From positions 14,942,001-15,006,000 of the forward strand of contig OZ059896.1 in the NCBI GenBank assembly GCA_964057225.1: DNA of 64,000 nucleotides, written 5' to 3'. Source of the DNA: Auanema rhodensis (taxonomy: Eukaryota > Animalia > Nematoda). The notes beneath the pieces are model-generated. The model was not told the DNA's origin, did no database searches, and saw only the letters and a list, made by a program, of their open reading frames with translations. How positions within the stretch are numbered: the stretch's first letter is position 1; each line of letters begins with the position of its first letter. Positions 2,084-51,192 of the stretch are shown here, piece after piece. The position numbers and the translations under genes were made by a program.

Positions 2084-3067
2084 AACGAATCTGTTGTTTT
2101 CCAAAGTGATTGTCAATAACTACTATAATCTATATTGAAAATCGAAAAAAGAAAAGAAACTCCGTCGAGCCTAACTTCTACAATCCTCCGCTCTACCAAC
2201 TGAGCTATCGACGGAACGAAGCTGTTGTTTTCAGAGGTTATTGTCAATAACTGCTATAATCAATATTTTAAATGGAAGAAAAAGAAAAGAAACTCCGTCG
2301 AGCCGGATTCGAACCAGCGACCTAAGGATATCTACACTTCTACAGTCCTCCGCTCTACCAACTGAGCTATCGACGGAACGAATCTGTTGTTTTCAGAGGT
2401 TATTGTCAATAACTGCTATAATCAATATTTTAAATGAAAGAAAAAGAAAAGAAACTCCGTCGAGCCGGATTCGAACCAGCGACCTAAGGATATCTACACT
2501 TCTACAGTCCTCCGCTCTACCAACTGAGCTATCGACGGAACGAATCTGTTGTTTTCAGAGGTTATTGTCAATAACTGCTATAATCAATATTTTAAATGAA
2601 AGAAAAAGAAAAGAAACTCCGTCGAGCCGGATTCGAACCAGCGACCTAAGGATATCTACACTTCTACAGTCCTCCGCTCTACCAACTGAGCTATCGACGG
2701 AACGAATCTGTTGTTTTCCAAAGTGATTGTCAATAACTACTATAATCTATATTGAAAATCGAAAAAAGAGAAGAAACTCCGTCGAGCCTAACTTCTACAA
2801 TCCTCCGCTCTACCAACTGAGTTATCGACGGAACGAATCTGTTCTTTTCAGAGGTTATTGTCAATAACTGCTATAATCAATATTTTAAATGGGAGAAAAA
2901 GAAAAGAAACTCCGTCGAGCCGGATTCGAACCAGCGACCTAAGGATATCTACACTTCTACAGTCCTCCGCTCTACCAACTGAGCTATCGACGGAACGAAT
3001 CTGTTGTTTTCAGAGCTTATTGTCAATAACTGCTATAATCAATATTTTAAATGAAAGAAAAAGAAAA

Positions 3068-3481
3068 CGTTCTATTTAGATCCTCGGTTCCAAGTTGAGA
3101 TATCCAAACAGACTATGAGACGATGAGTATGATTTTAAATATAAGTGTGTAATGTAAGGTGAAATAAGAAACAAAAGATGAAATGTATAAAGGTTTATTG
3201 TTCGCATTATAATATAATTATACAAAGATTAAAGCTAGAGTTAAGAAAGAGAATATAAAGAAGATAAAGAGAAAGTAAGATAATGAGATAATGAGATGCC
3301 TGAGTCTTGAGGACTCAGGTTTATATATCCATACAACTCCTACTCAGTTTACACAAATTGTTACAAAGTTTATAAAAAGTGCATCTAGAATATTCTCAGA
3401 ATTGCTTAAAAACTATCTGCATTAGTTTAATAATAGCAGCTGCCATGGTCAGCTGCTTTCCTTTGAGATATGTATGTAACA
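3068..3481 (-). repeat. 3' LTR of element 1
   Basis: Direct repeat of 13033-13449; the only difference I saw is a 3-bp indel (AAT). Sense ends TGTTAC...GAACG. TATATAAA at 3320-3327 and AATAAA at 3194-3199 on the minus strand. Confidence 0.97.
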
Positions 3482-3490
3482 TGCCCCAAC
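3482..3490 (-). other. Weak polypurine-tract position (…GGGGCA) before the 3' LTR
   Basis: Abuts the 3' LTR; same GGGCA ending as the PPT of element 2. Confidence 0.45.
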
Positions 3491-3661
3491 GGATACAAGT
3501 CAGCTGACCTCAGCTGTTATATGCAAATAATAAGAGAGAAAAATAAAAAAAATAAAATGGCATGAGATAAAGCAAATTTTTTTTTTTCAACAAACTATTG
3601 ATAAAGAGAAAAATTTTAAGAGATAGAATTTTATAAATGATTTAAACCTTTCCTCTCTTCT

Positions 3662-4014
3662 TTAATCCGCCAGTTGGTCAATTTCCTGGATCATTTCCGT
3701 CATTGATGCTAGTCCAAGCAGCTCCATTGTTCTGATGGTTTGGCTAACTGCTTTTGCCTTACTTTTTGATGCGGACGTGTTGGTAGTCCTTTTTGTCAGT
3801 AGTTTTTCGATTACTACTGATAGGTCTTGCCCTATCTCTATCCACGATGCTTCTTCTTCGGTTCCGCTATTTCCTACAGCTTGTTGTGTCATCTGTGTTG
3901 TCCACGTCGGCATTGCTTTGTAGATGTCAGCTGTGGTCTGCGTTCTGGCGGGTTGTCCCAGCATTATGTGTCGGATTCTGTTCTCTTTCTGGCTGAGAGA
4001 ACATCCTTCTTGAA
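3662..4014 (-). pseudogene. C-terminal remnant of a longer element ORF downstream of the integrase deletion
   Basis: The 100-aa ORF 3662-3964 stays open upstream (VQEGCSLSQKENRIRHI) through the point where integrase homology stops. No recognisable domain. Confidence 0.55.
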
Positions 4015-5718
4015 CATTGAAAGAACATATCTGTTTTCTTGTTCTGTCCTAGGTAATGGTCCGAGTATATCCATGTGTACTCTTTGCCATGGTTTTGTTG
4101 ATGTTGGAAAATTTTTCATTGGTTCCACCGTTGCTTCGTGAGGGTTGTTCTTTCTTTTCGCACAAGCAAGACATCTGTTGATGTAGTTTGTAATGTCTTC
4201 TTGCATTCCAGTCCATGTAAATCGTCTTGATATTGAGTCCATTGTTTTGTTTATTCCTAGATGAGCTCCGAGTGTCGGATCTTCATGAAATTTCTTCATA
4301 ATTGGATTAATTATGTGCTCTTCTCGTGGTAAAATTGTTCGTGGTACTTGTAGGCTTCTTTTTGGTTTTGAGTATAGTACATCGTTGTACACAATATATC
4401 TGTCCGTCAGTTGTCGTCCAGCTGTATTATTCTTTATTTTATCCATAGTTTCTTTTATCCAATTTGATTGATTCTGCACTGATCGAATATCTGCTATCGT
4501 GAAGGTGTTTATCTGATGAATAGTATCTTCCGTCGTTTTTCTTTCGTTTTTCTTCTTTGCTGGTGGTTTTGCTTCGTTGATTTCATCTTCAAAATATCGT
4601 GATAATGCGTCACATACACTGTTTAATTTTCCTGGTCTGTAGATAATTTCAATATCGTATTCTTGTAAAACAATTTGAAATTTTGCTAAACGACCTATTA
4701 AATCCTTTCTAGTCATTAAACTAGTGAGTGGTCTATGGTCCGTGATAATTTTGGTTGCTGTTCCTAGTATGTAGGTGCGAAATTGTTTGACGGCGAATGT
4801 AAGAGCTAATGCTTCTACTTCTATTGGTGGATAATTCCTTTCAGCTTTGTTGAGTTTCCGACTAGCAAAAGCTATTGGATGTAATGGTTCTTGATCGTCT
4901 TTCGCTTGAAGTAGTACAGCGCCAACTGCTATCATACTTCCATCACTTTCAATAACATATGGTCGCTTCGGGATTGGTGCTTGTAACACAGGTGCTTGAG
5001 TCAATGTTTTCTTCAAAGTATTAAAAGCAATTTCTTCTTCTTCTGTCCATTTGAACGGAGTGTCTTTCCGAGTGAGGTTGTAGAGTGGTGTTGCTATTCC
5101 TGCAGCATTCTTTATGAACCTTCTGAAGTAGTTTACTACTCCCATGAAAGCTCTTACTCCTGTCGTTGATTTTGGTTGGGGATAATCTTGTATTGCCTTA
5201 ATTTTATGTGGGTCCGGTTTAATTCCTTCTTGTCCAACTATGTATCCTAGAAATTTTACTTCCTTTCTTGCGAATGCGCATTTCTTCAGTTTTATTTTGA
5301 ATCCTATTTGAGTTACTGCTTCCAAAACTTCTTCAATATCTTTTAAATGTGCTGTCGTAGATTCAGAGATTAACAGTAAATCATCTAGATATACGAATAG
5401 CTTGCATTTAACCATTGATTGCAGGTATCGTACTGCGTTTTGAAAAGTATGGGGTGATCCACATAATCCCATCGGCATTCGACAATATTGATAAGTTCCA
5501 CTTGTTGTTGTGAAAGCTGTAAGATGACGATCTTCTTTCTTAAGAGGTATTTGGAAAAATCCAGATACTAAATCAAAGTTGCTGAAGATCCTTGCTCCAG
5601 CGGCCAAATCTAGGATGTCCTGTATGTTTGATATGACATATACTTGTTTCTGAGTGATTGCATTCAGAGCTCGAAAGTCCGTTACAAATCTATAAGTTTT
5701 GTCTTTCTTCTTCACCAA
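3964..5718 (-). CDS. pol: Pol: reverse transcriptase, RNase H and truncated integrase
   Basis: RT motifs FVTDFRALN, DLVSGFFQI, MPMGL, YLDD (5380-5391), FLGY. RNase H motifs ESDGS, YPPIEVEALA, TDHRPL, DALSR. Integrase HHCC and VHMDILGPLP are present, then homology ends near 4014, so the second D and the E are missing. Confidence 0.96.
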   Translation of the reverse strand: MVKKKDKTYRFVTDFRALNAITQKQVYVISNIQDILDLAAGARIFSNFDLVSGFFQIPLKKEDRHLTAFTTTSGTYQYCRMPMGLCGSPHTFQNAVRYLQSMVKCKLFVYLDDLLLISESTTAHLKDIEEVLEAVTQIGFKIKLKKCAFARKEVKFLGYIVGQEGIKPDPHKIKAIQDYPQPKSTTGVRAFMGVVNYFRRFIKNAAGIATPLYNLTRKDTPFKWTEEEEIAFNTLKKTLTQAPVLQAPIPKRPYVIESDGSMIAVGAVLLQAKDDQEPLHPIAFASRKLNKAERNYPPIEVEALALTFAVKQFRTYILGTATKIITDHRPLTSLMTRKDLIGRLAKFQIVLQEYDIEIIYRPGKLNSVCDALSRYFEDEINEAKPPAKKKNERKTTEDTIHQINTFTIADIRSVQNQSNWIKETMDKIKNNTAGRQLTDRYIVYNDVLYSKPKRSLQVPRTILPREEHIINPIMKKFHEDPTLGAHLGINKTMDSISRRFTWTGMQEDITNYINRCLACAKRKNNPHEATVEPMKNFPTSTKPWQRVHMDILGPLPRTEQENRYVLSMFKKDVLSARKRTESDT

Positions 5719-8700
5719 AATTACTGGAGTTTGTCATTGAGTTTGATGGTTCAATGATTCTTTGTTGTAGCATTTCTTCTATTTGTTTCTCCACTTCTTC
5801 TTGTTGGGAGAGTGGTATACGATAAGTAATTTTGAATGATGGTGTTTTTCCTGGCATGATTGGAATGGAGTGTTCAATTGGTCCTAGGAAGAGTCCGATA
5901 TTTCTATCTTCGTTGAGAAACGCTTGTTTATGTAGTAAAATTATTTCTTTCAGTTGCTGTTGTTCGATTTGCGAGAAGCAGGCTTCTGAAAGGTCAAGCT
6001 CATTGATGAAATTGTCTGGGAAATATGGCAGTTGTTCTTCCCATCGAGCTTCCGGAGGTATGTATTGTCCTTCGTATTTTTCTTGGTTGTCCTTTGGTAT
6101 CGCTTCTGCTATCCCTATTTCTTGATTCATTTGAATTTCGAGTGGCTGTTTGCATATATTCGTCGCGTAAATTTGTACTCCGTATCCAGTTGGCGTAAAT
6201 ATAGTAGGCGTGAAAGAGAGTTTGTTGCCTGGTTTCTTACAATCGAGAAACGCCTGTTCATAGCTTTCTGGATCGTGTACTTCTAGCGTGAGCGTTCTTG
6301 TTTCTCCTGGTCTTAGCGTTTTGTTTTCTAAGCTAACCACATATGCTTTCGTGGTCTGGTGTTCCCACGGAGATGTTTCTCGTGCTAGTGGAACATGTGT
6401 TGTGCCGATAACAATTGTTTTATCCAGCGGTCGAAGTGAGGTGTAAATTCCTTGTTGATGTAATGCTTCCATGAAGTCTATTCCAAGTAACACTGGTGCT
6501 GGACAGTAGTTATCTTCTGCTACATAAAATTTGTGTTCTGTTTCTGTTGTTCCTATTGTTATGAGGATCCTTGTGTATCCCATAAATGAGAATTTAGATT
6601 TATTCGCGACTATCGCTGTTGTTTGTTTTAGTACCATCGTTGCAGCGGGCAGTTGTTTGAAGGTGGATTCTCGCATGTATGATGCTGATGCTCCCGTGTC
6701 CCATAGTGCCTTAAAGATGTGATTGTGGATTGAAATTGGGACAAACGGTAATTGTGATCCTCCTATGTAGTTTATGTTTTCTTTCTTCATGCTTGTAGGG
6801 AAATAAGCTTCATAAATGTGTTCAGGAATTGGTGCTGAAGGATCATACAATGTGAGTTGACAGCTGTTGTGATGGTTGTCGACGTATGGAGCGGACGGAG
6901 AAGGATGAGATGTTTCTGTTCTTGTGTTCTCAGTTGATAGTGGTTGTAAGTATTCTGCTTCCCATTTGACATTGTTGATGGGTATCCTTGAACTACATGC
7001 GTATATTTTTATTATCCAGGTGGCGAGTGTGATTATGCCAATTGTTATGATGATTGATCCAATGATAGCAAGTACGCGTAGTGTCCAGGTTTGAATCTTT
7101 TCCCATATTGGTGACAGAAAGTCAAACATTTTCCAAGTTATAGCTTCTTTTGTATGTTCGTAGCTGAGTAGTAAGCTGCTGGCTGCTCCTGCTGTTAGGG
7201 TAACAGGGTTCATGTTAGGAATTAATCTTTGTTTGATTACAGGTTTTATTCTTCCTGGTAAAGTAGCCTGTAGCGTTGCTAAGCTGGATCCATATGATAT
7301 TGCTAGTGCCATAGGAAACGTTGATTCTGTTAGATTGTTGAAAATGTTGCTTCCATTAAACTTGATATGTTCTAGGTTGATTGATCCTAACTCGTCGATG
7401 TATGCTGGTGATGTTACATTTATTGATTGGTTATTATTAGTCCATTGATCGTTTTCTTTCCAGGGATCCTTGATTGTGAATCCGCATGGTATGGCATGTG
7501 CCATCGGTGTGAGGTCTCTTGTACCTGGTAGGATGAACAGTTGGCCGTGATGTTCCGTTTCGACTGGGGTTTCCAGAAAACACGTGCTGTTGACTTTGTG
7601 ATCACGGTATGTTTTTGTAATTTGAATTGGTGTGCATGGCATTACATAAATTAGTTTATCATTTATGAATCTTGCAGATATATCCTGTCGTCGTAGCATT
7701 GTACGCATCCCTATAGTAGGATTTATTTGAAGAATAGCCCACCAGGTAAGTAGTTGTTTATTTTGTACGTGGCAGATGTTGTTTCTGTTTGTTGTGAACG
7801 TACGTATGATATCATCTTCCAGATTGGTAGTGGCATATTGTAGATGAGATTGCGTTTCTTGTTGATGAAGATGTTCATTCCATTTTTGGACGATATCGTT
7901 CTTAGCTTTAAGGTAGTCTACGTGGGCTTTCTTACCAATATGTGATGATATTTCTTCAGGTGTGCTGCGAGTGGTAGTGATAGATCTTTTTGTAGTTCTT
8001 GGAGGCGGTGACTTGGTGAGTGATTCTTTCCTATTGTATTCCTGGCTTGAGGTGATCGTGATTGGGTTTGTAGTAATATTGAATGTAGATTGGGGGGTGG
8101 AGAATGATTGTTTTGGTCGATGAGTGGTGAATATAGTTGTGGTTGTTGTAGGTGTTGTGGTTGTTGTTGATCTGGGTCTAGCAGTAGTAGAAGTAGTAGT
8201 AGTAGTAGTGGTAGTAGTAGTAGTAGTTGATGAAGACGTGGGTATTGTTGGTTTGGGTCTAGTTGTTGTGGATATATGTGTTTTGGGTGTGATTGTCGAA
8301 GTGATGACGTTCCTTATGGTTGTAGGCTTAGGGGTCGTGGTAGTGGTTGTAGTAGTAGTTTGTAGGGGGGTCGAAGTGCTTCTAATTGTGGTTGCAAAAG
8401 GTCGTGTTCCGGGAGTACTGATAAGGGGTAGATAATGATTATAAAATTTTTCACTATCCTCTTGTGTAATGCTATAATTTGTAGGATTTCTTTTCCGGAA
8501 GCCGTAGAATATCTCGTCGCCATCGAAGATAACTGTGTAGTTTGGCAGTTGTAATGGTGGTAAGTTTAGTTCTTTTTCATATTTGATCCATTTCTTCATT
8601 TCTGCTTCGTATTCTTCTTTTGAATGTAGCTTCTTCGGATTATTTATTGCGTTCAGGATAATTTTTGCTTGTGCTAGTTGTTCGTACAGTTCTAAATCGT

Positions 8701-11700
8701 TTCGTGTCTTGGTGAGTCTTGGTTTTCTTGGTGGCATAAGTTGATATAAGTATTCTTCTAAAGATGGTGTTGTTTCTCCTGTAGCTAATGTAGTAGGTAT
8801 TTCCGCAAGTGAGTAAGCAATTTCTTTCGCGATTTCATAGTAGTCTCCTGTTTTGGTTGGTAGTATCTTCTTAAAATCCTTAATTGTGATCCGTTTGCTA
8901 AGTTTTTGCGTAAGTTCCTTATACGATAGATTATCGATCGCGATTTTTGTTGCTTCTCTTATTTCTGCTTCTCCTAGGGCGTGTAGAATGGCTATGTTGA
9001 CGTCTTCATATTTGTGCCATATAAGACGATTTTTGATAACATCAAAATTTATACCTAGGTATTTGAAGATTGCGATATACTTAGGTAACATATTTGTTAT
9101 GTTATTGAGATTGTAATGTATGTCAAGTCTTTTTCGTTGAATATAGGTTGTATATAGTAGAATCGTTCCAGTTTTGCTGGCTGAATATCTTAGCGAGGGG
9201 TATTGATGAACTGTCAAGAATCCTTTAGGGTATTCCGTGATTGCGTGTCTTCTTGATCGTCCTAAGCTTGAGGTTGAGTTGAAGGAGATTAGAGTTCCAC
9301 TATTTGTAGTAAATATATCTTTTTGTAAGCATGAGGAGGCTTCTTTTTCCGGTGTTTTATTGTTTAGAATAAAAGCACTTTGAATTCCGGGAATCAATAT
9401 GGTGTCTTCTGATATAAAAACTTCGTGAGAGCCTAATGAAGTGTACGAGCAACTATGTTTTTCTGATGGTGGGGTCCATATGATGAGAGCGTTGTTGGTT
9501 AGGCATTGTCCTTTGTCACTGGTGCATCCGTTGTCGTTTATGAATATATCTGAGAGTACTGTATTGTCTTGTAGGCTGGTCATGTGTCCTCGTTCAGCTA
9601 TGAATCTGGTACGTTGTTCGCATTCCTGTTTCCATATACCATTAGTAATAGTTGTATGTGGGAATGGAGTTCCATAGAGTCCTGGTGCTTCTCTTTGAAG
9701 GTTGTTACCGTTGAATATTCTTTCTTTAATAGCTGACGAACATTCTTGCAGTGTTGTTGGTGAAACTTTTGCTAGTGAGACATTAGTTTCTCTGATGAAG
9801 AAAACGTCGTGAATGCAGAGTTGGTAAGTTTCAATTGCACATTTCCATGCTTCCCATTCTTTTGGTTGTAGGTTTTGGATGAACAATTCTGCTGTAGTCT
9901 TCTGGATATGGTTATTAGTTGGTGCGATGAATCGGCAAGCTGTTGGAGATGGCGGCTCGACATATATTCCTCCTCTGTTTCCTGTGCATAACTGGTACGT
10001 TGTTTCTGCACTGCATGTGTTTATAATGAGTGCGATAATTGTGATAAAGAGGGGTAGAAATGGTGTTGATTTTCTTTTGTTGTTCGGTACTTCGTTTTCC
10101 GTGACGTTGTTGACTTGAAAACGTACTCCTGGGCTCTGTGTGCGTTCTCTATACCGTTCCGGTCCATTGGAGGTGCTGCGCGGGCGACTTCTATAATTGT
10201 TGTATTGGCTTCGATTGTATTGAGAGGGGTATTGTTCGTGATTATTTGATTGTCGCCGGTTGTTGTGTCCGCTATAGTTTTGGTCGCGGTTTCGATAGTA
10301 TGGTCTTTCTTGGCTTCTGTTCCGTGATCTGTCGAAGTAGTTTTGTCTTGATCCCTTATTTTGAGAGAATCGTGAGTTATGGTTCCTGTATTGGTGTTGA
10401 TGAGGCCGATATTGGTTGTTGTATCTGTCCGGATATCGGTTGTGTGGTTTGCCATTGCCATTATACATCGGTTTGGTTCCTTTGAAATCCTTAGATTCGT
10501 TTCTCTGGTATTGATTGTTGTCCTTTGAGTCTCGAATGTTGAGGTTGTTGAACGACTTCTCTATATTGTTGACAAACGATGTTGGTCTATTTTGTATAAA
10601 GAGTTCTTCTCGTAAGGCCATTTCGTAAGCTTCCTCAAAGTTTGGTGGGTCTAGACGGCTAACGTGTTCGCTTATTTCGGGTCTTAGTCCCCAGGTGAAG
10701 GTGGATCGGAGCATGTTAAGCTCACTTTCGTTGTTCATGTCCATAGCCGAGTAGGCTTCGTTAGAACATCTTGTTGCAAAGCTTTGTACCGATTCCGTTG
10801 GTAACTGTTTCAAGCCATGTAGGCGGTGCATTGCTCGTTCTCTCTGTTTTTTCGGTGTGATCATTTCTGAGAGTCGCTTCTTGACATGGTCCCATCCAAG
10901 TCGCTTATCTTCGGTTGTGAGTTTTCTGTACGCTTCTCTTGCTCGATCATCTTCTAGCAATAATTGTATGCTTTGAAGACGTTCGGGCATAGTTGTTCTT
11001 GTAGCGTTGAAGTGTTCATCTAGGTATAGTAGATAGCGGTTGAATGGTGTTTTTCCATCGTAGCGTGGAGCTTTTATATCGCGTATGGCGGACGGAATCG
11101 CTGCTGGTTGAGGGATGATTGTAGGTGTTGGAACAGGTGCCCTTCCCGAGGTTTGCGTAAGTGGTGCGCCTTCGTCCATTGGGTCCATTCTTGGGTTAAT
11201 TCTCTTGTTTTCTGCAACAAAAGTATTTGCTTGATTAGTTTGCGATGGAAGAGACGGAGATAGAGAATGCCCAGATGTAGAATGATCAATGGATGAAGGT
11301 GAGTTTCGTAGAGGTGGGGATGAGCTTACTGCGGGTGTGGTTGAAGAAAGTGCGGGCGTAGGTGATTTTTGTGTGGTTGGTGTATTGCTTCTTCTAGGGG
11401 TGGCTATTAAAGGATTGATTGGGTTGATTGTATTTGGTATGGTGTTGGTTGGGGGGTTTTGAGGGTTCCCTTTGCTTGCTATGTTTTTAGGAATAGGTTT
11501 AATGTTTGGGATAATTTTCTTTTCTAAGGTGTTTCTTTCGACTATGTCTGTTTTTTGTTTCTTCGTTTTTTCATGTGATTTGGGATTGGTGAATTGTTTT
11601 TGAATGCCGCGATGTCTTGGGGTATGTATTACCATTGACTTTGTTTTAATGCTTAACTTCGCTTGTTTTGCAGAGGGGGGAGAATATGTTGCGGGCGGTT

Positions 11701-11818
11701 GTCTTTTTCTTCTTATAATATTTGAAGTGGCAGCAGGGTCCAGCGGAGGTTTTGGACCAGTATTGGGCAGCATCGTTGGTATCCTGTAAGGAAATTTGTT
11801 ATATCCAACGTGTGCCAA
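5690..11818 (-). CDS. Gag-Env-protease-RT(N-terminus) polyprotein, 2042 aa (first ATG at 11773)
   Basis: Retrotransposon Gag core (PRYDG…LKQLPTESVQSF…FTWGLRPEI, ~10590-11070). Hydrophobic signal 10007-10060, Cys-rich ectodomain, TM 7010-7075. Protease LWDTGAS (6692-6700) and LLGIDF. RT N-terminus IEHSI…YRIP…IIEPSNS. No stop codon between these domains. Confidence 0.95.
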   Translation of the reverse strand: MAHVGYNKFPYRIPTMLPNTGPKPPLDPAATSNIIRRKRQPPATYSPPSAKQAKLSIKTKSMVIHTPRHRGIQKQFTNPKSHEKTKKQKTDIVERNTLEKKIIPNIKPIPKNIASKGNPQNPPTNTIPNTINPINPLIATPRRSNTPTTQKSPTPALSSTTPAVSSSPPLRNSPSSIDHSTSGHSLSPSLPSQTNQANTFVAENKRINPRMDPMDEGAPLTQTSGRAPVPTPTIIPQPAAIPSAIRDIKAPRYDGKTPFNRYLLYLDEHFNATRTTMPERLQSIQLLLEDDRAREAYRKLTTEDKRLGWDHVKKRLSEMITPKKQRERAMHRLHGLKQLPTESVQSFATRCSNEAYSAMDMNNESELNMLRSTFTWGLRPEISEHVSRLDPPNFEEAYEMALREELFIQNRPTSFVNNIEKSFNNLNIRDSKDNNQYQRNESKDFKGTKPMYNGNGKPHNRYPDRYNNQYRPHQHQYRNHNSRFSQNKGSRQNYFDRSRNRSQERPYYRNRDQNYSGHNNRRQSNNHEQYPSQYNRSQYNNYRSRPRSTSNGPERYRERTQSPGVRFQVNNVTENEVPNNKRKSTPFLPLFITIIALIINTCSAETTYQLCTGNRGGIYVEPPSPTACRFIAPTNNHIQKTTAELFIQNLQPKEWEAWKCAIETYQLCIHDVFFIRETNVSLAKVSPTTLQECSSAIKERIFNGNNLQREAPGLYGTPFPHTTITNGIWKQECEQRTRFIAERGHMTSLQDNTVLSDIFINDNGCTSDKGQCLTNNALIIWTPPSEKHSCSYTSLGSHEVFISEDTILIPGIQSAFILNNKTPEKEASSCLQKDIFTTNSGTLISFNSTSSLGRSRRHAITEYPKGFLTVHQYPSLRYSASKTGTILLYTTYIQRKRLDIHYNLNNITNMLPKYIAIFKYLGINFDVIKNRLIWHKYEDVNIAILHALGEAEIREATKIAIDNLSYKELTQKLSKRITIKDFKKILPTKTGDYYEIAKEIAYSLAEIPTTLATGETTPSLEEYLYQLMPPRKPRLTKTRNDLELYEQLAQAKIILNAINNPKKLHSKEEYEAEMKKWIKYEKELNLPPLQLPNYTVIFDGDEIFYGFRKRNPTNYSITQEDSEKFYNHYLPLISTPGTRPFATTIRSTSTPLQTTTTTTTTTPKPTTIRNVITSTITPKTHISTTTRPKPTIPTSSSTTTTTTTTTTTTSTTARPRSTTTTTPTTTTTIFTTHRPKQSFSTPQSTFNITTNPITITSSQEYNRKESLTKSPPPRTTKRSITTTRSTPEEISSHIGKKAHVDYLKAKNDIVQKWNEHLHQQETQSHLQYATTNLEDDIIRTFTTNRNNICHVQNKQLLTWWAILQINPTIGMRTMLRRQDISARFINDKLIYVMPCTPIQITKTYRDHKVNSTCFLETPVETEHHGQLFILPGTRDLTPMAHAIPCGFTIKDPWKENDQWTNNNQSINVTSPAYIDELGSINLEHIKFNGSNIFNNLTESTFPMALAISYGSSLATLQATLPGRIKPVIKQRLIPNMNPVTLTAGAASSLLLSYEHTKEAITWKMFDFLSPIWEKIQTWTLRVLAIIGSIIITIGIITLATWIIKIYACSSRIPINNVKWEAEYLQPLSTENTRTETSHPSPSAPYVDNHHNSCQLTLYDPSAPIPEHIYEAYFPTSMKKENINYIGGSQLPFVPISIHNHIFKALWDTGASASYMRESTFKQLPAATMVLKQTTAIVANKSKFSFMGYTRILITIGTTETEHKFYVAEDNYCPAPVLLGIDFMEALHQQGIYTSLRPLDKTIVIGTTHVPLARETSPWEHQTTKAYVVSLENKTLRPGETRTLTLEVHDPESYEQAFLDCKKPGNKLSFTPTIFTPTGYGVQIYATNICKQPLEIQMNQEIGIAEAIPKDNQEKYEGQYIPPEARWEEQLPYFPDNFINELDLSEACFSQIEQQQLKEIILLHKQAFLNEDRNIGLFLGPIEHSIPIMPGKTPSFKITYRIPLSQQEEVEKQIEEMLQQRIIEPSNSMTNSSNFGEEERQNL
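7010..10060 (-). other. env: Envelope glycoprotein region, herpesvirus gB-like class III fusogen
   Basis: Signal peptide, furin site RSRR (9248-9259), several N-x-S/T sequons and a TM anchor. The block LQY…ICHVQNKQLLTWW…INP…ISARFIND…PCTP…CFLETPV follows the gB domain III/IV pattern LQF…WC..QN…W…NP…SAR..GD…C.P…CY..P. Recognised by eye, not searched. Confidence 0.8.
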
Positions 11819-13014
11819 AATAATTTTATATATAGAAAAACGTAAAGAATAATGTTGGGTTTGTGTGCGCGATTCTTATGAAGGTAGCTAGTCTTGCAAG
11901 TAATCTCTTTACCAATATAGCTCGTCCGGGTCTAACACAGGTTTGAAACTAGTGTGCCTTTTCAAAGGGACAAGTTCTATATTGTGAAAAAGGCATGAAA
12001 TGAAAGTTAATAGTTCGCCAGTCTTTTGGGACAAGGATACAAAATAGAATTTTCGCAATCATTTCATTTTCCCAGACCTCATTAACCTATCTGAGTCACA
12101 GGTATGTCAGCTGCCTTCTGCATCCTGCTCCCTGACTCTATGATGGCGAGACCACTCTTATTATTTATATCAATGTGGGGCAGATTTCAATTCAAAAATT
12201 TTCTAATTATTTCATGGGGCGTACGTCTTATCCTGAGTGTCGGCCTCCGCTCGAGTCTCTTGAGTGTCTGGCATTATTCTTAACGAGGGGGGGATGGTTT
12301 TTGCGTATAAGTTAAAACTTATTGATTAATTTAATTATTTTTCGTTTTTTTTTTCAGGTGCTAAGGTAATCGGAATTTGGATACGCTGCGCCTAATAAAT
12401 ATTTTTACTGTCGTGTTTAACACGGGATTTCTTGCTTATGAAATTACGGGGGGGGGAAGGGGTGGGTTTATGAGAATACAGTGTAGTAGTATAAGAATAA
12501 TAGTTTTATAAACGAACATAAAGAAAATAATGAAAATATGGTATGATAGGATGATTAAATAGTATGATAAGATGAAGATTGAGGTAATATGATAAGATGA
12601 TTAAGATTGAGAGGTATAGAAGCAATATTCCTTTTTATTTCTTAATTCTAAATTAATTTTATAAAGAACTTAACTATTTTTGTTCAAAAAATGTGAAAAT
12701 AAACTTATAATTCTTAGAAAAGTTAATTATTGAATTTGAATAATTTTCGTATATAGGATTTTGGATAGAGAGAATGATAAATGATATAAGTACTCTTATG
12801 AATAATTGAAAATGATTTATGAGAATATAATGAATGGAAAACTGAGTTTTTGTAAAGAGTTTTTGGATATAATTTTTAATAGAAAAGTTTTAGAGTTTTT
12901 AAGAAAATATTATAAGCTAACTTTAAGAGAGAGATAAGATTTTTAATTTAATTGAATAAGAGATGTAGACGGTAGCGCTTGAGTTCCTTTACGAGATCCT
13001 GTCCAAAAGGAAGG

Positions 13015-13032
13015 ATCTCGGCGGAACCTCCA
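13015..13032 (-). promoter_or_regulatory. Primer-binding site, tRNA-Gln
   Basis: TGGAGGTTCCGCCGAGAT directly after the 5' LTR; complementary to the tRNA-Gln 3' end …ATCTCGGTGGAACCTCCA with one G:U pair. Confidence 0.85.
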
Positions 13033-13449
13033 CGTTCTATTTAGATCCTCAATGGTTCCAAGTTGAGATATCCAAACAGACTATGAGACGATGAGTATGA
13101 TTTTAAATATAAGTGTGTAATGTAAGGTGAAATAAGAAACAAAAGATGAAATGTATAAAGGTTTATTGTTCGCATTATAATATAATTATACAAAGATTAA
13201 AGCTAGAGTTAAGAAAGAGAATATAAAGAAGATAAAGAGAAAGTAAGATAATGAGATAATGAGATGCCTGAGTCTTGAGGACTCAGGTTTATATATCCAT
13301 ACAACTCCTACTCAGTTTACACAAATTGTTACAAAGTTTATAAAAAGTGCATCTAGAATATTCTCAGAATTGCTTAAAAACTATCTGCATTAGTTTAATA
13401 ATAGCAGCTGCCATGGTCAGCTGCTTTCCTTTGAGATATGTATGTAACA
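13033..13449 (-). repeat. 5' LTR of element 1
   Basis: 417 bp; direct repeat of 3068-3481; followed by the PBS in the sense direction. Confidence 0.97.
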
Positions 13450-37400: not shown

Positions 37401-38679
37401 GGTTATTGTCAATAACTGATATCTACACTTCTACAGTCCTCCGCTCTACCAACCGAGCTATCGACGGAACGAATCTGTTGTTTTCCAAAGTGATTGTCAA
37501 TAACTACTATAATCTATATTGAAAATCGAAAAAAGAAAAGAAACTCCGTCGAGCCTAACTTCTACAATCCTCCGCTCTACCAACTGAGCTATCGACGGAA
37601 CGAAGCTGTTGTTTTCAGAGGTTATTGTCAATAACTGCTATAATCAATATTTTAAATGGAACAAAAAGAAAAGAAACTCCGTCGAGCCGGATTCGAACCA
37701 GCGACCTAAGGATATCTACACTTCTACAGTCCTCCGCTCTACCAACTGAGCTATCGACGGAACGAATCTGTTGTTTTCAGAGGTTATTGTCAATAACTGC
37801 TATAATCAATATTTTAAATGGAAGAAAAAGAAAAGAAACTCCGTCGAGCCGGATTCGAACCAGCGACCTAAGGATATCTACACTTCTACAGTCCTCCGCT
37901 CTACCAACTGAGCTATCGACGGAACGAATCTGTTGTTTTCAGAGGTTATTGTCAATAACTGATATCTACACTTCTACAGTCCTCCGCTCTACCAACCGAG
38001 CTATCGACGGAACGAATCTGTTGTTTTCCAAAGTGATTGTCAATAACTACTATAATCTATATTGAAAATCGAAAAAAGAAAAGAAACTCCGTCGAGCCTA
38101 ACTTCTACAATCCTCCGCTCTACCAACTGAGCTATCGACGGAACGAAGCTGTTGTTTTCAGAGGTTATTGTCAATAACTGCTATAATCAATATTTTAAAT
38201 GGAAGAAAAAGAAAAGAAACTCCGTCGAGCCGGATTCGAACCAGCGACCTAAGGATATCTACACTTCTACAGTCCTCCGCTCTACCAACTGAGCTATCGA
38301 CGGAACGAATCTGTTGTTTTCAGAGGTTATTGTCAATAACTGCTATAATCAATATTTTAAATGAAAGAAAAAGAAAAAAAACTCCGTCGAGCCGGATTCG
38401 AACCAGCGACCTAAGGATATCTACACTTCTACCGTCCTCCGCTCTACCAACTGAGCTATCGACGGAACGAATCTGTTGTTTTCAGAGGTTATTGTCAATA
38501 ACTGCTATAATCAATTTTTTAAATGAAAGAAAAAGAAAAGAAACTCCGTCGAGCCGGATTCGAACCAGCGACCTAAGGATATCTACACTTCTACAGTCCT
38601 CCGCTCTACCAACTGAGCTATCGACGGAACGAATCTGTTGTTTTCAGAGGTTATTGTCAATAACTGCTATAATCAATAT
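13450..38679 (-). repeat. Tandem tRNA-Tyr(GUA) array, segment 2
   Basis: Continuous A/B/C monomers, with long A-only runs at ~31.0-32.3 kb and ~32.9-35.1 kb. Confidence 0.97.
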
Positions 38680-39024
38680 CGTTCCATTCGGACTCCACAT
38701 ATATGTAGCTGAAGGGTTAGAGCCAGACGACCAGAGGACCGAGGAATGGCTCCGCCTTCCCTCGTTCCCTTGGTCGGGAGTTCGCCTCTTAGCAAGCTCA
38801 TGGACGGCTTGTAGTTTAGTCTTTATACTTATATTTATCTTATTGTATTGTATCTTTATCTTTGTATATTATTGTTGTAGTTTCATGCCAATAAATCTTT
38901 CTCTCTTTTATCTTATGATTGACCTTATGCTCTTTATTCCTTACCGCTACACCAAGGAATACTATGCGCGTCATAGTATAAACTACAATGGTTTATATTA
39001 TCGACGCAGGAGCATAACGGAACG
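38680..39024 (+). repeat. 5' LTR of element 2
   Basis: Ends CGTTCC…GGAACG (6-bp terminal inverted repeat); AATAAA near 38890; no difference seen from 41796-42140. Confidence 0.96.
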
Positions 39025-39037
39025 TGGAGGTTCCACC
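39025..39037 (+). promoter_or_regulatory. Primer-binding site, tRNA-Gln
   Basis: TGGAGGTTCCACC abutting the LTR. Confidence 0.85.
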
Positions 39038-40681
39038 TCGAACTCATCTTTTGAAAAAAAAAAATTTTTTTATTGTAGAAGTCCATTTTTGCATTCTAAA
39101 TTATAAATTCCTCCACTTGAAACAACAAAATGAAGGCGCCAATTTGTTTTAAGGTACAGATACAAGGGATCTCGCTTAAATGCGAGATAGGACCAATAAA
39201 ATTTTTGCCCGCCGTCCTCAATTTAAAACCGTCTGAATGTCCACCCTTTTCTATATCGTATCTTGTACCGCTTCTCATGCCATTTTGAGGACGTTTGGAT
39301 TGAAATAGAGGACAATTTCGCCAAACGAGAAATTATAGTTGTTCACATTTTTTTTTGGGCATAGAGAAGTTTGATTACTGGAACAAAAATTCATAAGACG
39401 CGCGCAATTGATTATAGTTTGTATATTTTGTGGTCAGGACTAGAATTTTGAAAAATTGTTATATTCAGACGTAAAAGATCATTTTACATATTATTTTGCG
39501 GGAAACCAAAATAGGTTACATAAATTGAATATAAAAACAGACCACACTAGTCCGAAAAAGCCTGGTAAATCTGCAATAAGACTTCTCAGCTCTTAATTGA
39601 CAGTCAGGTCAAGTTGGCGGAAGCATAACTGCTACGGATTTTATCCCCGTAGATTATGTCACCTTCCTCAAATCATTTCGTTGTTTCAACTCATAAGATA
39701 CCCCTTATCTCCTACAGTAATCCTAAGTTAATGGGAAATGTTTAAAAATAGACGTATTTTTCTCATTTTCAAAAAGAAATTCGCTTAGGAAAACGCACTT
39801 TTGCTTATTTTGATCAAGAAAAAGGACAGCCTTTTCAATAACTCTCCTCAAACCTCATTAGCATGCACAATGTCGAAAACATTTTGAGCAAAACATGCTA
39901 TTTAAGGGAAAAGGAATGAGGAAAAGATTGAAAACATAAGTCCATTTTCTTGACGAAAACAGAGCAAAGTGCACAAAAAAAATAAAAACACAGAGTACAA
40001 ACTTTATTCAGTCAATACCCATATCCAAACCAAATAATGAGTCATCATAAACAATATAGATTTTAAACAATAATCTATATAATAAATAATAATAAAAATG
40101 ACTCTTTTCCTGGTACCAGGCCCAAGGACGTGCGGTTAATAAACCGGCCCTACCATTATATACATGAGCGCATAGATCAACTAAGCACCTTCGACCAACA
40201 AGCTCCACTTCGGGAGCTACATCTACGAAGGTGGCAAAGTTTATATGTCCCTGCCCCAAATAATACATTTGAAGATCTTCGATAAACTAAAGTAATCAAA
40301 TAATCAAACATAAAATGGAGATACACAAACCATTAAAATTATATCAGGGTTTGGCCTATAAGCCAAAACTCCTTCTCCATCGTATTCAACGATGGATTCG
40401 TATAATTTCCACAGGACTTAAGTCATGCCAGTGGGATTATAACGTTGGAAATCCATTTTTTTTCTTTCTTTCTTTTCTTTTCTTTTGTTTCTAACCTTAA
40501 AATAAATGTCCAAAGGCCGCAAAAGTACAAAGGGGACGACATGAATAAAGTTTTTTTTAAAGATTCTAGAGCAGTAAGAAAACAAAATTAGAGGAAAGTG
40601 CAAGAGCGGATAAAAATAGTTTTTGAGAAGAGATAAACATCATTAACTATAATAAGCTTACGGTAGATAGGCGGAGTCAGA

Positions 40682-41155
40682 TTGGTGGCCACGATTTGGA
40701 AAACTCCCTCTCATTTACCCTCCGCATCGCCCAGCGAAGCACGACTATCCTATTGCTCCCGAATCTCTCTCTCTCCCAACACACATCTAAAAGAATCTAA
40801 CGCACCTTGCGTCAACATCCCACACGTAGCTCACCATTCTCGGTTTTTCCAAACCAAAAGTCCTACAAAGGTGGCCAAAAGATTCTCATCGGCTTTCCGA
40901 GCCCTTTACCCGTCCGATATCAACAGTGACGCTACTGTCGCAAGTCGTACCGGAAGCCGTACCCGACTTCTCAGTGTTCAAATAGAAAAACCGCACCAAC
41001 CAGACGAGAAGCCGAAGCCGCAAGTCGACAAATTCTATACTCCCCGAGAAGGCACATATTCACCTTCTGACGACACCGACGAAGATCCGGACTTCATCAT
41101 AGCCGACGACAGAAAAAAATTTTATATACATTCTTTTCTTTTCTGTAAATTGTAA
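40682..41155 (+). CDS. Hypothetical 157-aa ORF inside the non-autonomous element
   Basis: Longest internal ORF, lying in a more GC-rich island; S/P-rich with an acidic tail. TTG start only, no known motif. Confidence 0.25.
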   Translation: MVATIWKTPSHLPSASPSEARLSYCSRISLSPNTHLKESNAPCVNIPHVAHHSRFFQTKSPTKVAKRFSSAFRALYPSDINSDATVASRTGSRTRLLSVQIEKPHQPDEKPKPQVDKFYTPREGTYSPSDDTDEDPDFIIADDRKKFYIHSFLFCKL

Positions 41156-41784
41156 AATGAAAGTAACGGTGAATTAGAAAATTTTTGATGAGAGATTAAG
41201 TGAGTAAACAACTAAAAACAAGGAATAAGCAAAAATATAATAAAAATAAATGACTACCGTAATCCTATACGACCGATAGAGATAATATTTTGCGCTAAAC
41301 TGAGCTCCATATGTATCTCCAAGAAGAGACGAACATTGGCAGGCGCCTAAGCCACACCCCATCTGAGTGGTAGCCTCCATTAGTACTCAAGGATTCATTC
41401 AGAGAGACATATGGAGACGAGTAAATTATTAAATAAAATTATCCCCATCATCATTAGGATACGAGTAACCATGTAACGGAAATGTTTAATAATTCCTTAT
41501 TGTCTCACATAAATCACACATTCATGAAACAAAGAAATTTTTTTTTATTACAGTACTACAATGACTAAATTTATTTTCTAATCCTCCGTTACAAAATAAC
41601 ATAAAACCTATTATTGTATTCAAATTCTATCTTAATACCATAAAGAAACCTATTAAAATTATTTATATATCTTTCTACATGTAGATTTTAAAACTTTTAA
41701 TTTTATTTGTAAACTCGTAGACTCTAAAACTCAGCTACATATACACTAAAAACACTTTATATCGCGCGGACGCGAAAAATCTTT

Positions 41785-41795
41785 GAAAAAGGGCA
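41785..41795 (+). other. Polypurine tract GAAAAAGGGCA
   Basis: Immediately precedes the 3' LTR. Confidence 0.75.
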
Positions 41796-42140
41796 CGTTC
41801 CATTCGGACTCCACATATATGTAGCTGAAGGGTTAGAGCCAGACGACCAGAGGACCGAGGAATGGCTCCGCCTTCCCTCGTTCCCTTGGTCGGGAGTTCG
41901 CCTCTTAGCAAGCTCATGGACGGCTTGTAGTTTAGTCTTTATACTTATATTTATCTTATTGTATTGTATCTTTATCTTTGTATATTATTGTTGTAGTTTC
42001 ATGCCAATAAATCTTTCTCTCTTTTATCTTATGATTGACCTTATGCTCTTTATTCCTTACCGCTACACCAAGGAATACTATGCGCGTCATAGTATAAACT
42101 ACAATGGTTTATATTATCGACGCAGGAGCATAACGGAACG
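41796..42140 (+). repeat. 3' LTR of element 2
   Basis: Direct repeat of 38680-39024. Confidence 0.96.
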
Positions 42141-47336: not shown

Positions 47337-48085
47337 CACTAGATTATTCACTAGACGAAAAACGACAGATTTATGTCAATATTTCAAAATAGTTAAGAGC
47401 AACTCAAATTTCAGCAAATCATTGTTCAGACTGAAAGAACATGCATATTCTTTTCGTCAACACGACTTTTTGATTGTGGCTCCGAGATACCAGTCTAACG
47501 CGGCACTGTCTAGTTTCGAATATCGTAGAATCAAAGATTGGAACCAGCTTCACTCCATTTTGATTAATATTGAAAAAGTTTCTAATTTTCGTAGTTGTAT
47601 TATGAACCATAATTCTTCTTCATTGTGACTTTGTTTTTAACTTGTTTTTATTTTTCTTTTTTTCTTTTTTCTTCAATGAGATTGTTTTGTTAATCGTTTT
47701 GTGTTAAGCTGTTGCTCCTTCTTCTTTTGTTCTCTCAGTTTTCCTAGGCATCTGACCTATAGACATGAGTCGTACGGTCTGAGCACGGTAATCACTTATT
47801 TGATAGAACGGGTTTGACCTTACTCTTTGTGTCACCGTACCTAGACAAACCAAGAAGTGATTGGCTTCGAATTGTAATTTTCAAGCTGAAAACTCAAGAT
47901 CATAACTCTTATAATTGAGCACATTCTTAACTAAAAACCAATTCAAAGCTAACTCTGGAGTTAAAAGAAAAAAAAAAGCAGCTACCGAAAGGTTAATTTT
48001 AATGTTCTTATCTTAATTTAACCTCACACCTTCCTTGTAACCTGTGGTCAGTTGTGTTGAATAAACTTAAACTTAAACTTAAACT
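47337..48085 (+). mobile_element. 5'-truncated CR1-like non-LTR retrotransposon, copy 1
   Basis: Open frame 47338-47628 LFTRRKTTDLCQYFKIV…FRQH…FEYRRIKDWNQL fits the CR1-clade ORF2 C-terminus (L..RR...DL...YKI / F..R....WN.LP). Followed by a 3' UTR, AATAAA and a (TAAACT)4 tail; AACT at both junctions. Confidence 0.85.
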
Positions 48086-50443: not shown

Positions 50444-51192
50444 CACTAGATTATTCACTAGACGAAAAACGACAGATTTATGTCAATATTTCAAAATAGT
50501 TAAGAGCAACTCAAATTTCAGCAAATCATTGTTCAGACTGAAAGAACATGCATATTCTTTTCGTCAACACGACTTTTTGATTGTGGCTCCGAGATACCAG
50601 TCTAACGCGGCACTGTCTAGTTTCGAATATCGTAGAATCAAAGATTGGAACCAGCTTCACTCCATTTTGATTAATATTGAAAAAGTTTCTAATTTTCGTA
50701 GTTGTATTATGAACCATAATTCTTCTTCATTGTGACTTTGTTTTTAACTTGTTTTTATTTTTCTTTTTTTCTTTTTTCTTCAATGAGATTGTTTTGTTAA
50801 TCGTTTTGTGTTAAGCTGTTGCTCCTTCTTCTTTTGTTCTCTCAGTTTTCCTAGGCATCTGACCTATAGACATGAGTCGTACGGTCTGAGCACGGTAATC
50901 ACTTATTTGATAGAACGGGTTTGACCTTACTCTTTGTGTCACCGTACCTAGACAAACCAAGAAGTGATTGGCTTCGAATTGCAATTTTCAAGCTGAAAAC
51001 TCAAGATCATAACTCTTATAATTGAGCACATTCTTAACTAAAAACCAATTCAAAGCTAACTCTGGAGTTAAAAGAAAAAAAAAAGCAGCTACCGAAAGGT
51101 TAATTTTAATGTTCTTATCTTAATTTAACCTCACACCTTCCTTGTAACCTGTGGTCAGTTGTGTTGAATAAACTTAAACTTAAACTTAAACT
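50444..51192 (+). mobile_element. 5'-truncated CR1-like non-LTR retrotransposon, copy 2
   Basis: Same 749 bp and same junctions as copy 1 (offset 3107); one substitution seen (47875 T vs 50982 C). Confidence 0.85.

What the first reader, a model, noticed from the sequence alone, without database searches (positions are those of the whole stretch)
7010..10060. Env looks like a herpesvirus gB-type class III fusogen in a Gypsy element
The segment at ~7480-7850 reproduces the gB central-helix/domain IV residue pattern. The N-terminal Cys-rich part has two short hydrophobic stretches (DVFFI, NGIW) that could be bipartite fusion loops (inference). Classical Gypsy envs are baculovirus F-like. gB-like env is established for the Ascaris BEL/Pao element Tas, so this suggests an independent capture or transfer between superfamilies.
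Basis: partly seen in the sequence, partly recalled or inferred. Interest (0 to 1): 0.8.

Follow-up and report, generated by a model that had tools for sequence, protein, structure and literature searches.

The report
Nematode gag-env-pol retroelement, gB-like envelope
This is a damaged copy of a retrovirus-like jumping gene, likely from a roundworm, whose envelope protein resembles the herpesvirus-gB class of membrane-fusion proteins; that combination is already published, and the main extra is a large inserted region of no recognised fold that may help it attach to cells.

Summary
The class III call holds; the independent-capture claim does not. The Env (7010-10060, minus strand) sits in one ORF between Gag and protease of a Ty3/Gypsy element (3068-13449; near-identical LTRs, tRNA-Gln-type PBS) inserted in a tRNA-Tyr tandem array. 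A profile of its homologues hits herpesvirus gB (E 2e-14) and rabies G; its model matches gB and mononegaviral/chuviral G. DVFFI lies at a hairpin tip, NGIW in the next loop. The GAG-ENV-POL, gB-type layout is published for nematodes (Chary and Hayashi, PMC13524379; 36 nematode entries). Env and RT both group with rhabditid Gypsy elements, and an AU test rejects grouping this Env with BEL/Pao Envs (p 6e-8). Extra here: a 464-residue insert after the furin motif (helical domain without a clear fold match, plus a Thr-rich stretch), against a median of 36.5 in 56 homologues; I did not find it discussed. This copy has a frameshift at the start of RT and lacks most of the integrase. The scan reported the same kind of element four times on other DNA. 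New member of a known kind.

The parts
13033..13449 (-). 5' LTR (417 bp), starts TG, ends CG
   Evidence: 0 mismatches and 3 gap columns against the 3' LTR
13015..13032 (-). primer-binding site, tRNA-Gln type, directly after the 5' LTR
   Evidence: 11 of 12 bases equal the Gln_UUG_CUG PBS listed for Clat_errantivirus_4
5690..11875 (-). ORF1, Gag-Env-protease plus the first residues of the RT region in one frame (2061 aa stop to stop; first Met at 11773)
10682..10951 (-). Gag capsid domain (Retrotrans_gag, E 8e-5, just under the cut-off)
10007..10063 (-). first hydrophobic segment, likely internal signal anchor / signal peptide of Env
   Evidence: hydropathy; role inferred
9260..10006 (-). Env N-terminal half, beta-rich, 10 conserved Cys (class III domains I-II)
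   Evidence: (rabies G E 4e-6)
9794..9808 (-). DVFFI, candidate fusion loop 1 at a predicted hairpin tip
9632..9643 (-). NGIW, candidate fusion loop 2
9248..9259 (-). RSRR, furin-type cleavage motif at the end of the N-terminal half
   Evidence: R-x-K/R-R motifs at the matching place in many homologues
8495..9235 (-). inserted, Cys-free, mainly helical domain (about 245 aa) without a clear fold match
   Evidence: 36-38% identical to Auanema P0001
7961..8398 (-). Thr/Ser-rich, mucin-like stretch, predicted disordered
   Evidence: up to 29 of 40 residues S/T; pLDDT under 50
7724..7933 (-). long central helix (class III domain III)
   Evidence: helix 692-761 of the model
7436..7720 (-). beta-rich crown (class III domain IV) with conserved Cys
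7019..7075 (-). second hydrophobic segment, likely membrane anchor of Env
6467..6739 (-). aspartic protease (DTGA at 6689-6700)
3964..5733 (-). ORF2: RT, RNase H, integrase zinc finger and first residues of the core; out of frame with ORF1 near 5730; homology to relatives stops near 4020
3068..3481 (-). 3' LTR (414 bp); 4-bp target-site duplication AAAA on both flanks of the element
2911..2993 (-). nearest tRNA gene of the host tandem array (intron-containing, GTA anticodon, read as tRNA-Tyr from the sequence); not part of the element

Best explanation
This is a Ty3/Gypsy LTR retroelement with the gene order Gag-Env-protease-RT-RNase H-integrase, likely from a rhabditid nematode, whose Env is predicted to be a class III membrane-fusion protein likely inherited together with its pol from related nematode elements; this copy's pol is broken, so it likely cannot move by itself. 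Shown: gene order, LTRs, PBS, target-site duplication, sequence and predicted-structure similarity to gB/G, tree placement, the frameshift near 5730 and the missing integrase core. Inferred: one polyprotein threads the ER membrane twice, leaving Gag and Pol in the cytosol and Env in the lumen; signal peptidase frees the Env N-terminus, a furin-like protease cuts at RSRR while disulfides hold the halves together; Env trimers coat budding particles, insert the two loops into a target membrane and refold to fuse it, letting particles pass between cells (e.g. soma to germline). The inserted helical domain and mucin-like stalk would then sit at the N-terminus of the anchored fragment as an accessory attachment or shielding module.
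For: Pfam order Gag, gB, protease, then RT, RH, IN zinc finger. Profile hits to gB E 1.8e-14 and rabies G E 4e-6. All 34 PDB Foldseek rows shown are herpesvirus gB, best E 1.7e-10; BFVD best E 2.5e-15, a rhabdo-like virus G. Of 150 homologues listed (253 found), 29 carry a pol marker: 20 Gypsy-type, 19 of these with Env before pol and 1 unresolved; 9 BEL-type, all pol before Env. The nearest named homologues are from Auanema, Caenorhabditis and Pristionchus. RT is sister to C. japonica P0005 (100/98), and the Env of P0005 is in the same 98/98 clade as this Env. The paper describes GAG-ENV-POL with gB-type Env in Nematoda and ectodomains flanked by two TM segments; 36 of 36 nematode entries are ENV_HSV, 8 of 36 labelled Gln PBS.
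Against: Fusion, trimer formation, cleavage and expression are untested. The direct Pfam gB hit is under the curated cut-off. The model has pTM 0.49 with 332 of 970 residues under pLDDT 50, and Foldseek TM-scores are low (about 0.16 by query, 0.26 by target, rmsd mostly 24-28 A), so the match is local and not a whole-chain superposition. A 23-sequence profile of the N-terminal half reached rabies G only at E 0.04. Trees used LG+G4 without a mixture model at 25-32% identity, and gene models of homologues may be mis-spliced. The host is inferred from homologues only.
Confidence: 0.9

Rival explanations
1. This Env was captured independently from a virus, or transferred from a BEL/Pao element such as Tas, into this Gypsy lineage.
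For: Related gB-like Envs occur in BEL/Pao proteins among the homologues (9 of 29 with a pol marker). Gypsy and BEL labels need 3 changes on the Env tree, and BEL Env monophyly is rejected (p 0.008), so exchange has probably happened somewhere in the family. Tas Env is described as weakly gB-like (PMC9094657).
Against: This Env is nested among rhabditid Gypsy Envs (98/98) and tracks its RT; the AU test rejects a clade with BEL Envs (p 6e-8). Tas itself and viral G proteins were not in the tree, so a very old capture at the base of the nematode clade is not excluded.
Confidence: 0.07
2. The Env is a non-functional or non-fusogenic relic: the fold is class III, but the large insert has disabled fusion or the protein now serves only as a membrane tether for Gag and Pol.
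For: The 464-residue linker is the second longest when set beside 56 complete homologues; this copy's pol is broken.
Against: The Env frame is open over 1017 codons, all 14 Cys and the hydrophobic loop tips are kept, the insert is shared with other elements at 24-38% identity, and it lies next to the furin motif, where 16 of 56 homologues have linkers over 100 residues.
Confidence: 0.15
3. The pol breaks are assembly errors, or the frameshift near 5730 is programmed, and the element is autonomous.
For: The LTRs have no mismatch, so the insertion is young; frameshifts between ORFs are common in Gypsy elements (own knowledge).
Against: The shift falls inside the RT start where homologues read straight on, and about 300 residues of integrase present in P0005 have no match in any frame of 3001-6200.
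Confidence: 0.1

Closest known systems
GAG-ENV-POL, HSV/gB-type Ty3/gypsy 'errantiviruses' of nematodes (Chary and Hayashi, eLife, PMC13524379), in particular Nematoda_Chromadorea_Clat_errantivirus_4 (category Nematoda_C1)
   Same: Gene order, gB-type Env, two hydrophobic segments around the ectodomain, Gln-type PBS. The domain I-II sequence of Clat_4 is, by eye and not computed, very close to P0003, which is in this Env's supported clade.
   Different: 464-residue post-furin insert; insertion in a tRNA-Tyr array; LTR ending CG; broken pol. The nematode rows I saw in supplement 2 (15 rows) cover domains I-II only, so they say nothing on the insert; figures could not be seen.
Non-canonical nematode endogenous retroviruses (Sacco et al. 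2022, J Gen Virol, PMID 35550022; seen only as title and citation in PMC13524379; not held)
   Same: Metavirus with a glycoprotein gene placed before pol in nematodes.
   Different: Could not be compared; whether it mentions Env inserts is unknown to me.
Herpesvirus gB and mononegaviral/chuviral G (class III fusogens; Pfam Glycoprotein_B, Monjiviricetes_fusion, BDV_G)
   Same: Central helix, Cys-stapled crown, beta-rich fusion domain with loop tips, C-terminal anchor.
   Different: About 10-15% identity; embedded in a retroelement polyprotein; large helical plus mucin-like insert; no gH/gL/gD partners encoded in the element.
BEL/Pao elements with gB-like Env (Ascaris Tas, PMC9094657 passage; mosquito chuvirus-like elements as cited in PMC13524379)
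   Same: Same fusogen class in an LTR retroelement; homologous Envs found.
   Different: Different RT superfamily, pol-env order (9 of 9), short linkers (11-37 residues, 5 of 5), and not the source of this Env.

Membership tests
Ty3/Gypsy (Metaviridae) LTR retroelement | LTRs, PBS, target-site duplication | tested here: met
   LTR ends TG...CG, not the usual TG...CA
Ty3/Gypsy (Metaviridae) LTR retroelement | pol order PR-RT-RH-IN and Gypsy-type RT, not BEL/Pao | tested here: met
   (17 Gypsy against 6 BEL RTs, 100/100); no Peptidase_A17 or DUF1759 hit
Ty3/Gypsy (Metaviridae) LTR retroelement | intact pol (autonomous copy) | tested here: not met
   frameshift near 5730 and integrase homology ending near 4020; bears on autonomy of this copy, not on family membership
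GAG-ENV-POL gB-type errantiviruses | env between gag and pol | tested here: met
GAG-ENV-POL gB-type errantiviruses | Env related to published nematode members | tested here: met
   clade with Caenorhabditis proteins; link to Clat_errantivirus_4 by eye only
class III fusogens | central helix (domain III) and beta crown (domain IV) with conserved Cys | tested here: met
class III fusogens | beta-rich fusion domain with two hydrophobic loops | tested here: met
   model topology, conservation, profile hit to rabies G 52-183; 3D adjacency of the two loops not measured
class III fusogens | whole-chain structural superposition with gB | tested here: inconclusive
class III fusogens | trimer | not tested
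   three full ectodomains exceed the 1000-residue limit; no sub-domain trimer was run
class III fusogens | membrane fusion activity | not testable with these tools
   needs an assay
BEL/Pao-derived Env | Env groups with BEL/Pao Envs | tested here: not met
   AU test p 6e-8; Tas not included
F-type (baculovirus F-like) errantivirus Env | F-type fold or Pfam Gypsy/Baculo_F match | tested here: not met
   no such Pfam hit at E up to 0.1; positive matches are to class III proteins

The most novel reading that the evidence does not exclude
The post-furin linker of nematode gB-type Envs is a slot for interchangeable accessory modules, and the helical domain plus mucin-like stalk found here is a built-in receptor-binding and shielding unit that lets a stand-alone gB-like fusogen pick and enter target cells without gD/gH/gL-type partners. 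Several unrelated insert families of 100-500 residues occupy this slot, and this one has no clear fold match.
Probability: 0.25. Interest if true: 0.6.

Novelty: new member of a known kind. Interest (0 to 1): 0.25.

Why it matters
The main claim adds one more example to a published group. What could matter is the insert. Chary and Hayashi state that the entry mechanism of gB-type errantiviruses is unknown because gB normally needs gD and gH/gL. A variable accessory domain carried inside Env is a testable candidate for how these fusogens attach and are triggered, and the isolated domain folds in prediction (pTM 0.71), so it can be expressed alone. The CG-ending LTRs and the repeated insertions into a tRNA array are small leads on integrase specificity.

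Full report
Setting. The window is mostly a tandem array of an intron-containing tRNA gene with a GTA anticodon (143 copies match the exact pattern; Rfam tRNA; I read it as tRNA-Tyr from the sequence). Four non-array segments interrupt it. The first, 3068-13449 on the minus strand, is the element holding the finding: LTRs of 417 and 414 bp with no mismatch and 3 gap columns, a 4-bp AAAA target-site duplication, and a PBS directly after the 5' LTR that matches 11 of 12 bases of a published tRNA-Gln PBS.

Anatomy. One 2061-aa ORF (5690-11875) carries Gag, then Env, then protease; a second frame (3964-5733) carries RT, RNase H and the integrase zinc finger. The order is GAG-ENV-POL. Env lies between two hydrophobic segments (10007-10063 and 7019-7075), has 14 Cys, an RSRR motif at 9248-9259 and a Thr-rich stretch. 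Against relatives, the frame changes near 5730 inside the start of RT, and homology stops near 4020, leaving about 300 residues of the integrase of P0005 unmatched in any frame. This copy is therefore likely non-autonomous. Whether those breaks are real or assembly errors was not established.

Is Env class III? The single sequence gives weak signals: Pfam Glycoprotein_B at E 3.7e-5, under the cut-off, and pseudorabies gB at E 0.9 with three Cys in register. A search of 1.84 billion representatives found 253 homologues, 150 listed. A profile of 91 sequences (the window and 90 of these) hits herpesvirus gB chains from E 1.8e-14 and rabies G at E 4e-6 over the N-terminal half. Of 20 long homologues scanned, most match Monjiviricetes_fusion and many Glycoprotein_B. 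The AlphaFold model of the 970-aa ectodomain (mean pLDDT 69, pTM 0.49) shows a beta-rich N-terminal half, a 70-residue central helix and a beta crown, mostly at pLDDT 75-98. DVFFI is at the turn between two long strands and NGIW closes the loop before the next long strand; Cys687 and Cys752 flank them, which fits the paper's remark on a bridge near the fusion loops, though I could not measure distances. All 34 PDB Foldseek rows shown are herpesvirus gB (best E 1.7e-10); in BFVD the best are rhabdo-like and nyamivirus glycoproteins (E 2.5e-15 and 6e-13), with gB and chu-like G behind. TM-scores are low (0.16 by query), as expected with a third of the model at low confidence; the match is local. 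A smaller profile of the N-terminal half reached rabies G only at E 0.04. Verdict: class III, with gB as a fold label and not a donor.

Origin. Of the 150 homologues, 29 carry a pol marker on the same protein: 20 Gypsy-type (19 env before pol, 1 unresolved) and 9 BEL-type (all pol before env). Nine of ten top homologues looked up have names, all nematode: Auanema, Caenorhabditis, Pristionchus, Aphelenchus. RT groups with Gypsy RTs and is sister to C. japonica P0005 (100/98). In the 33-row Env tree this Env pairs with Auanema P0004 (99/93) inside a 98/98 clade that includes P0005; the 70-row tree agrees. Forcing this Env together with 8 BEL Envs is rejected (p-AU 6e-8). Forcing the BEL Envs alone together is also rejected (p 0.008): one BEL Env sits among Gypsy Envs, so exchange between superfamilies probably occurred elsewhere. 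These trees use LG+G4 at low identity, are unrooted for Env, and lack Tas and viral G, so they exclude a recent transfer, not an ancient one.

What is known. Chary and Hayashi (PMC13524379; I saw the abstract, passages, section 5 part 1, section 6, section 9 part 1, and search results in supplementary files 1, 2 and 4; figures not available) report gB-type Env as widespread in Ty3/gypsy and state that nematode, bryozoan and flatworm elements carry only gB-type Env in GAG-ENV-POL order. Their table lists 36 nematode elements, all ENV_HSV, 8 labelled with Gln PBS. The domain I-II sequence of Clat_errantivirus_4 is by eye very close to P0003 of this Env's clade. They cite Sacco et al. 2022 for the flipped order in nematodes (seen as citation only). 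The Tas statement is confirmed in passages of PMC9094657. After I had fixed this reading, the scan's own index showed four earlier findings of the same kind on other genomes.

What is extra. Between the N-terminal half and the central helix this Env has 464 residues, against a median of 36.5 (range 9-500) in 56 homologues with both halves; 16 of 56 exceed 100 residues and only one is longer than this. The long linkers fall into several groups that are similar within but mostly not between groups. Here the linker is a Cys-free helical domain of about 245 aa (36-38% identical to Auanema P0001, 23% to P0004, with a shorter version in Caenorhabditis P0002, P0003, P0005) followed by a mucin-like stretch. 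Folded alone it reaches pTM 0.71 but has no clear match. I found no mention of such inserts in the paper's text (search for 'linker', 'mucin', 'insertion') and the nematode alignments I saw cover domains I-II only; the figures and Sacco 2022 may bear on this. Linker lengths of homologues come from predicted gene models and may contain splice errors.

Mechanism (inferred). A single polyprotein crosses the ER membrane twice; Gag and Pol stay cytosolic, Env is lumenal, is freed by signal peptidase and cut at RSRR, and forms trimers on budding particles that fuse with a neighbouring cell through the two loops. The insert would hang from the N-terminus of the anchored fragment as an attachment or shielding module. 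None of these steps was tested.

Verdict. Observation confirmed; interpretation half right. New member of a known kind, interest 0.25; the insert as a built-in receptor-binding module is the boldest reading left (probability 0.25, interest 0.6).

Noticed in passing
window 1-64000: Tandem array of an intron-containing tRNA gene with GTA anticodon (tRNA-Tyr); 143 copies fit the exact pattern, interleaved with partial copies, in units of 162, 219 and 293 bp.
   Followed up: partly
window 38680-42140 (+): Second LTR element of 3461 bp with identical 345-bp LTRs, the same tRNA-Gln-type PBS start, an ATAT target-site duplication and no match to any gag, env or pol protein at hand; likely a non-autonomous element moved by relatives of the first.
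   Followed up: partly
window 3068, 13033, 38680, 39024, 41796, 42140: Both LTR elements end in CG and not CA: TG...CG for the first, CG...CG for the second. This departs from the usual TG...CA rule (own knowledge); one literature search found nothing.
   Followed up: partly
window 3064-3067 and 38676-38679: Both LTR elements inserted just 3' of a tRNA gene of the array, in the T-rich spacer on the gene's strand, at different offsets; two cases cannot separate targeting from chance in an array.
   Followed up: no
window 47337-48081 and 50444-51188: A 745-bp insert present twice, nearly identical, at the same place in the array unit, ending in short TTAAAC repeats; possibly a truncated non-LTR retroposon duplicated with the array. 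No match to the proteins at hand.
   Followed up: partly
homologue P0028: A BEL/Pao polyprotein whose gB-like Env groups with Gypsy Envs (96/83), a candidate real case of Env exchange between superfamilies.
   Followed up: partly
window 11776-13014 and 10950-11773: About 1.2 kb of leader between PBS and first Met, and a long Pro/Ser/Lys-rich N-terminal extension of Gag before the capsid domain.
   Followed up: no
window 3662-4048 (-): A 128-aa stop-to-stop frame after the integrase break with no Pfam hit; could be a remnant of the pol tail.
   Followed up: partly
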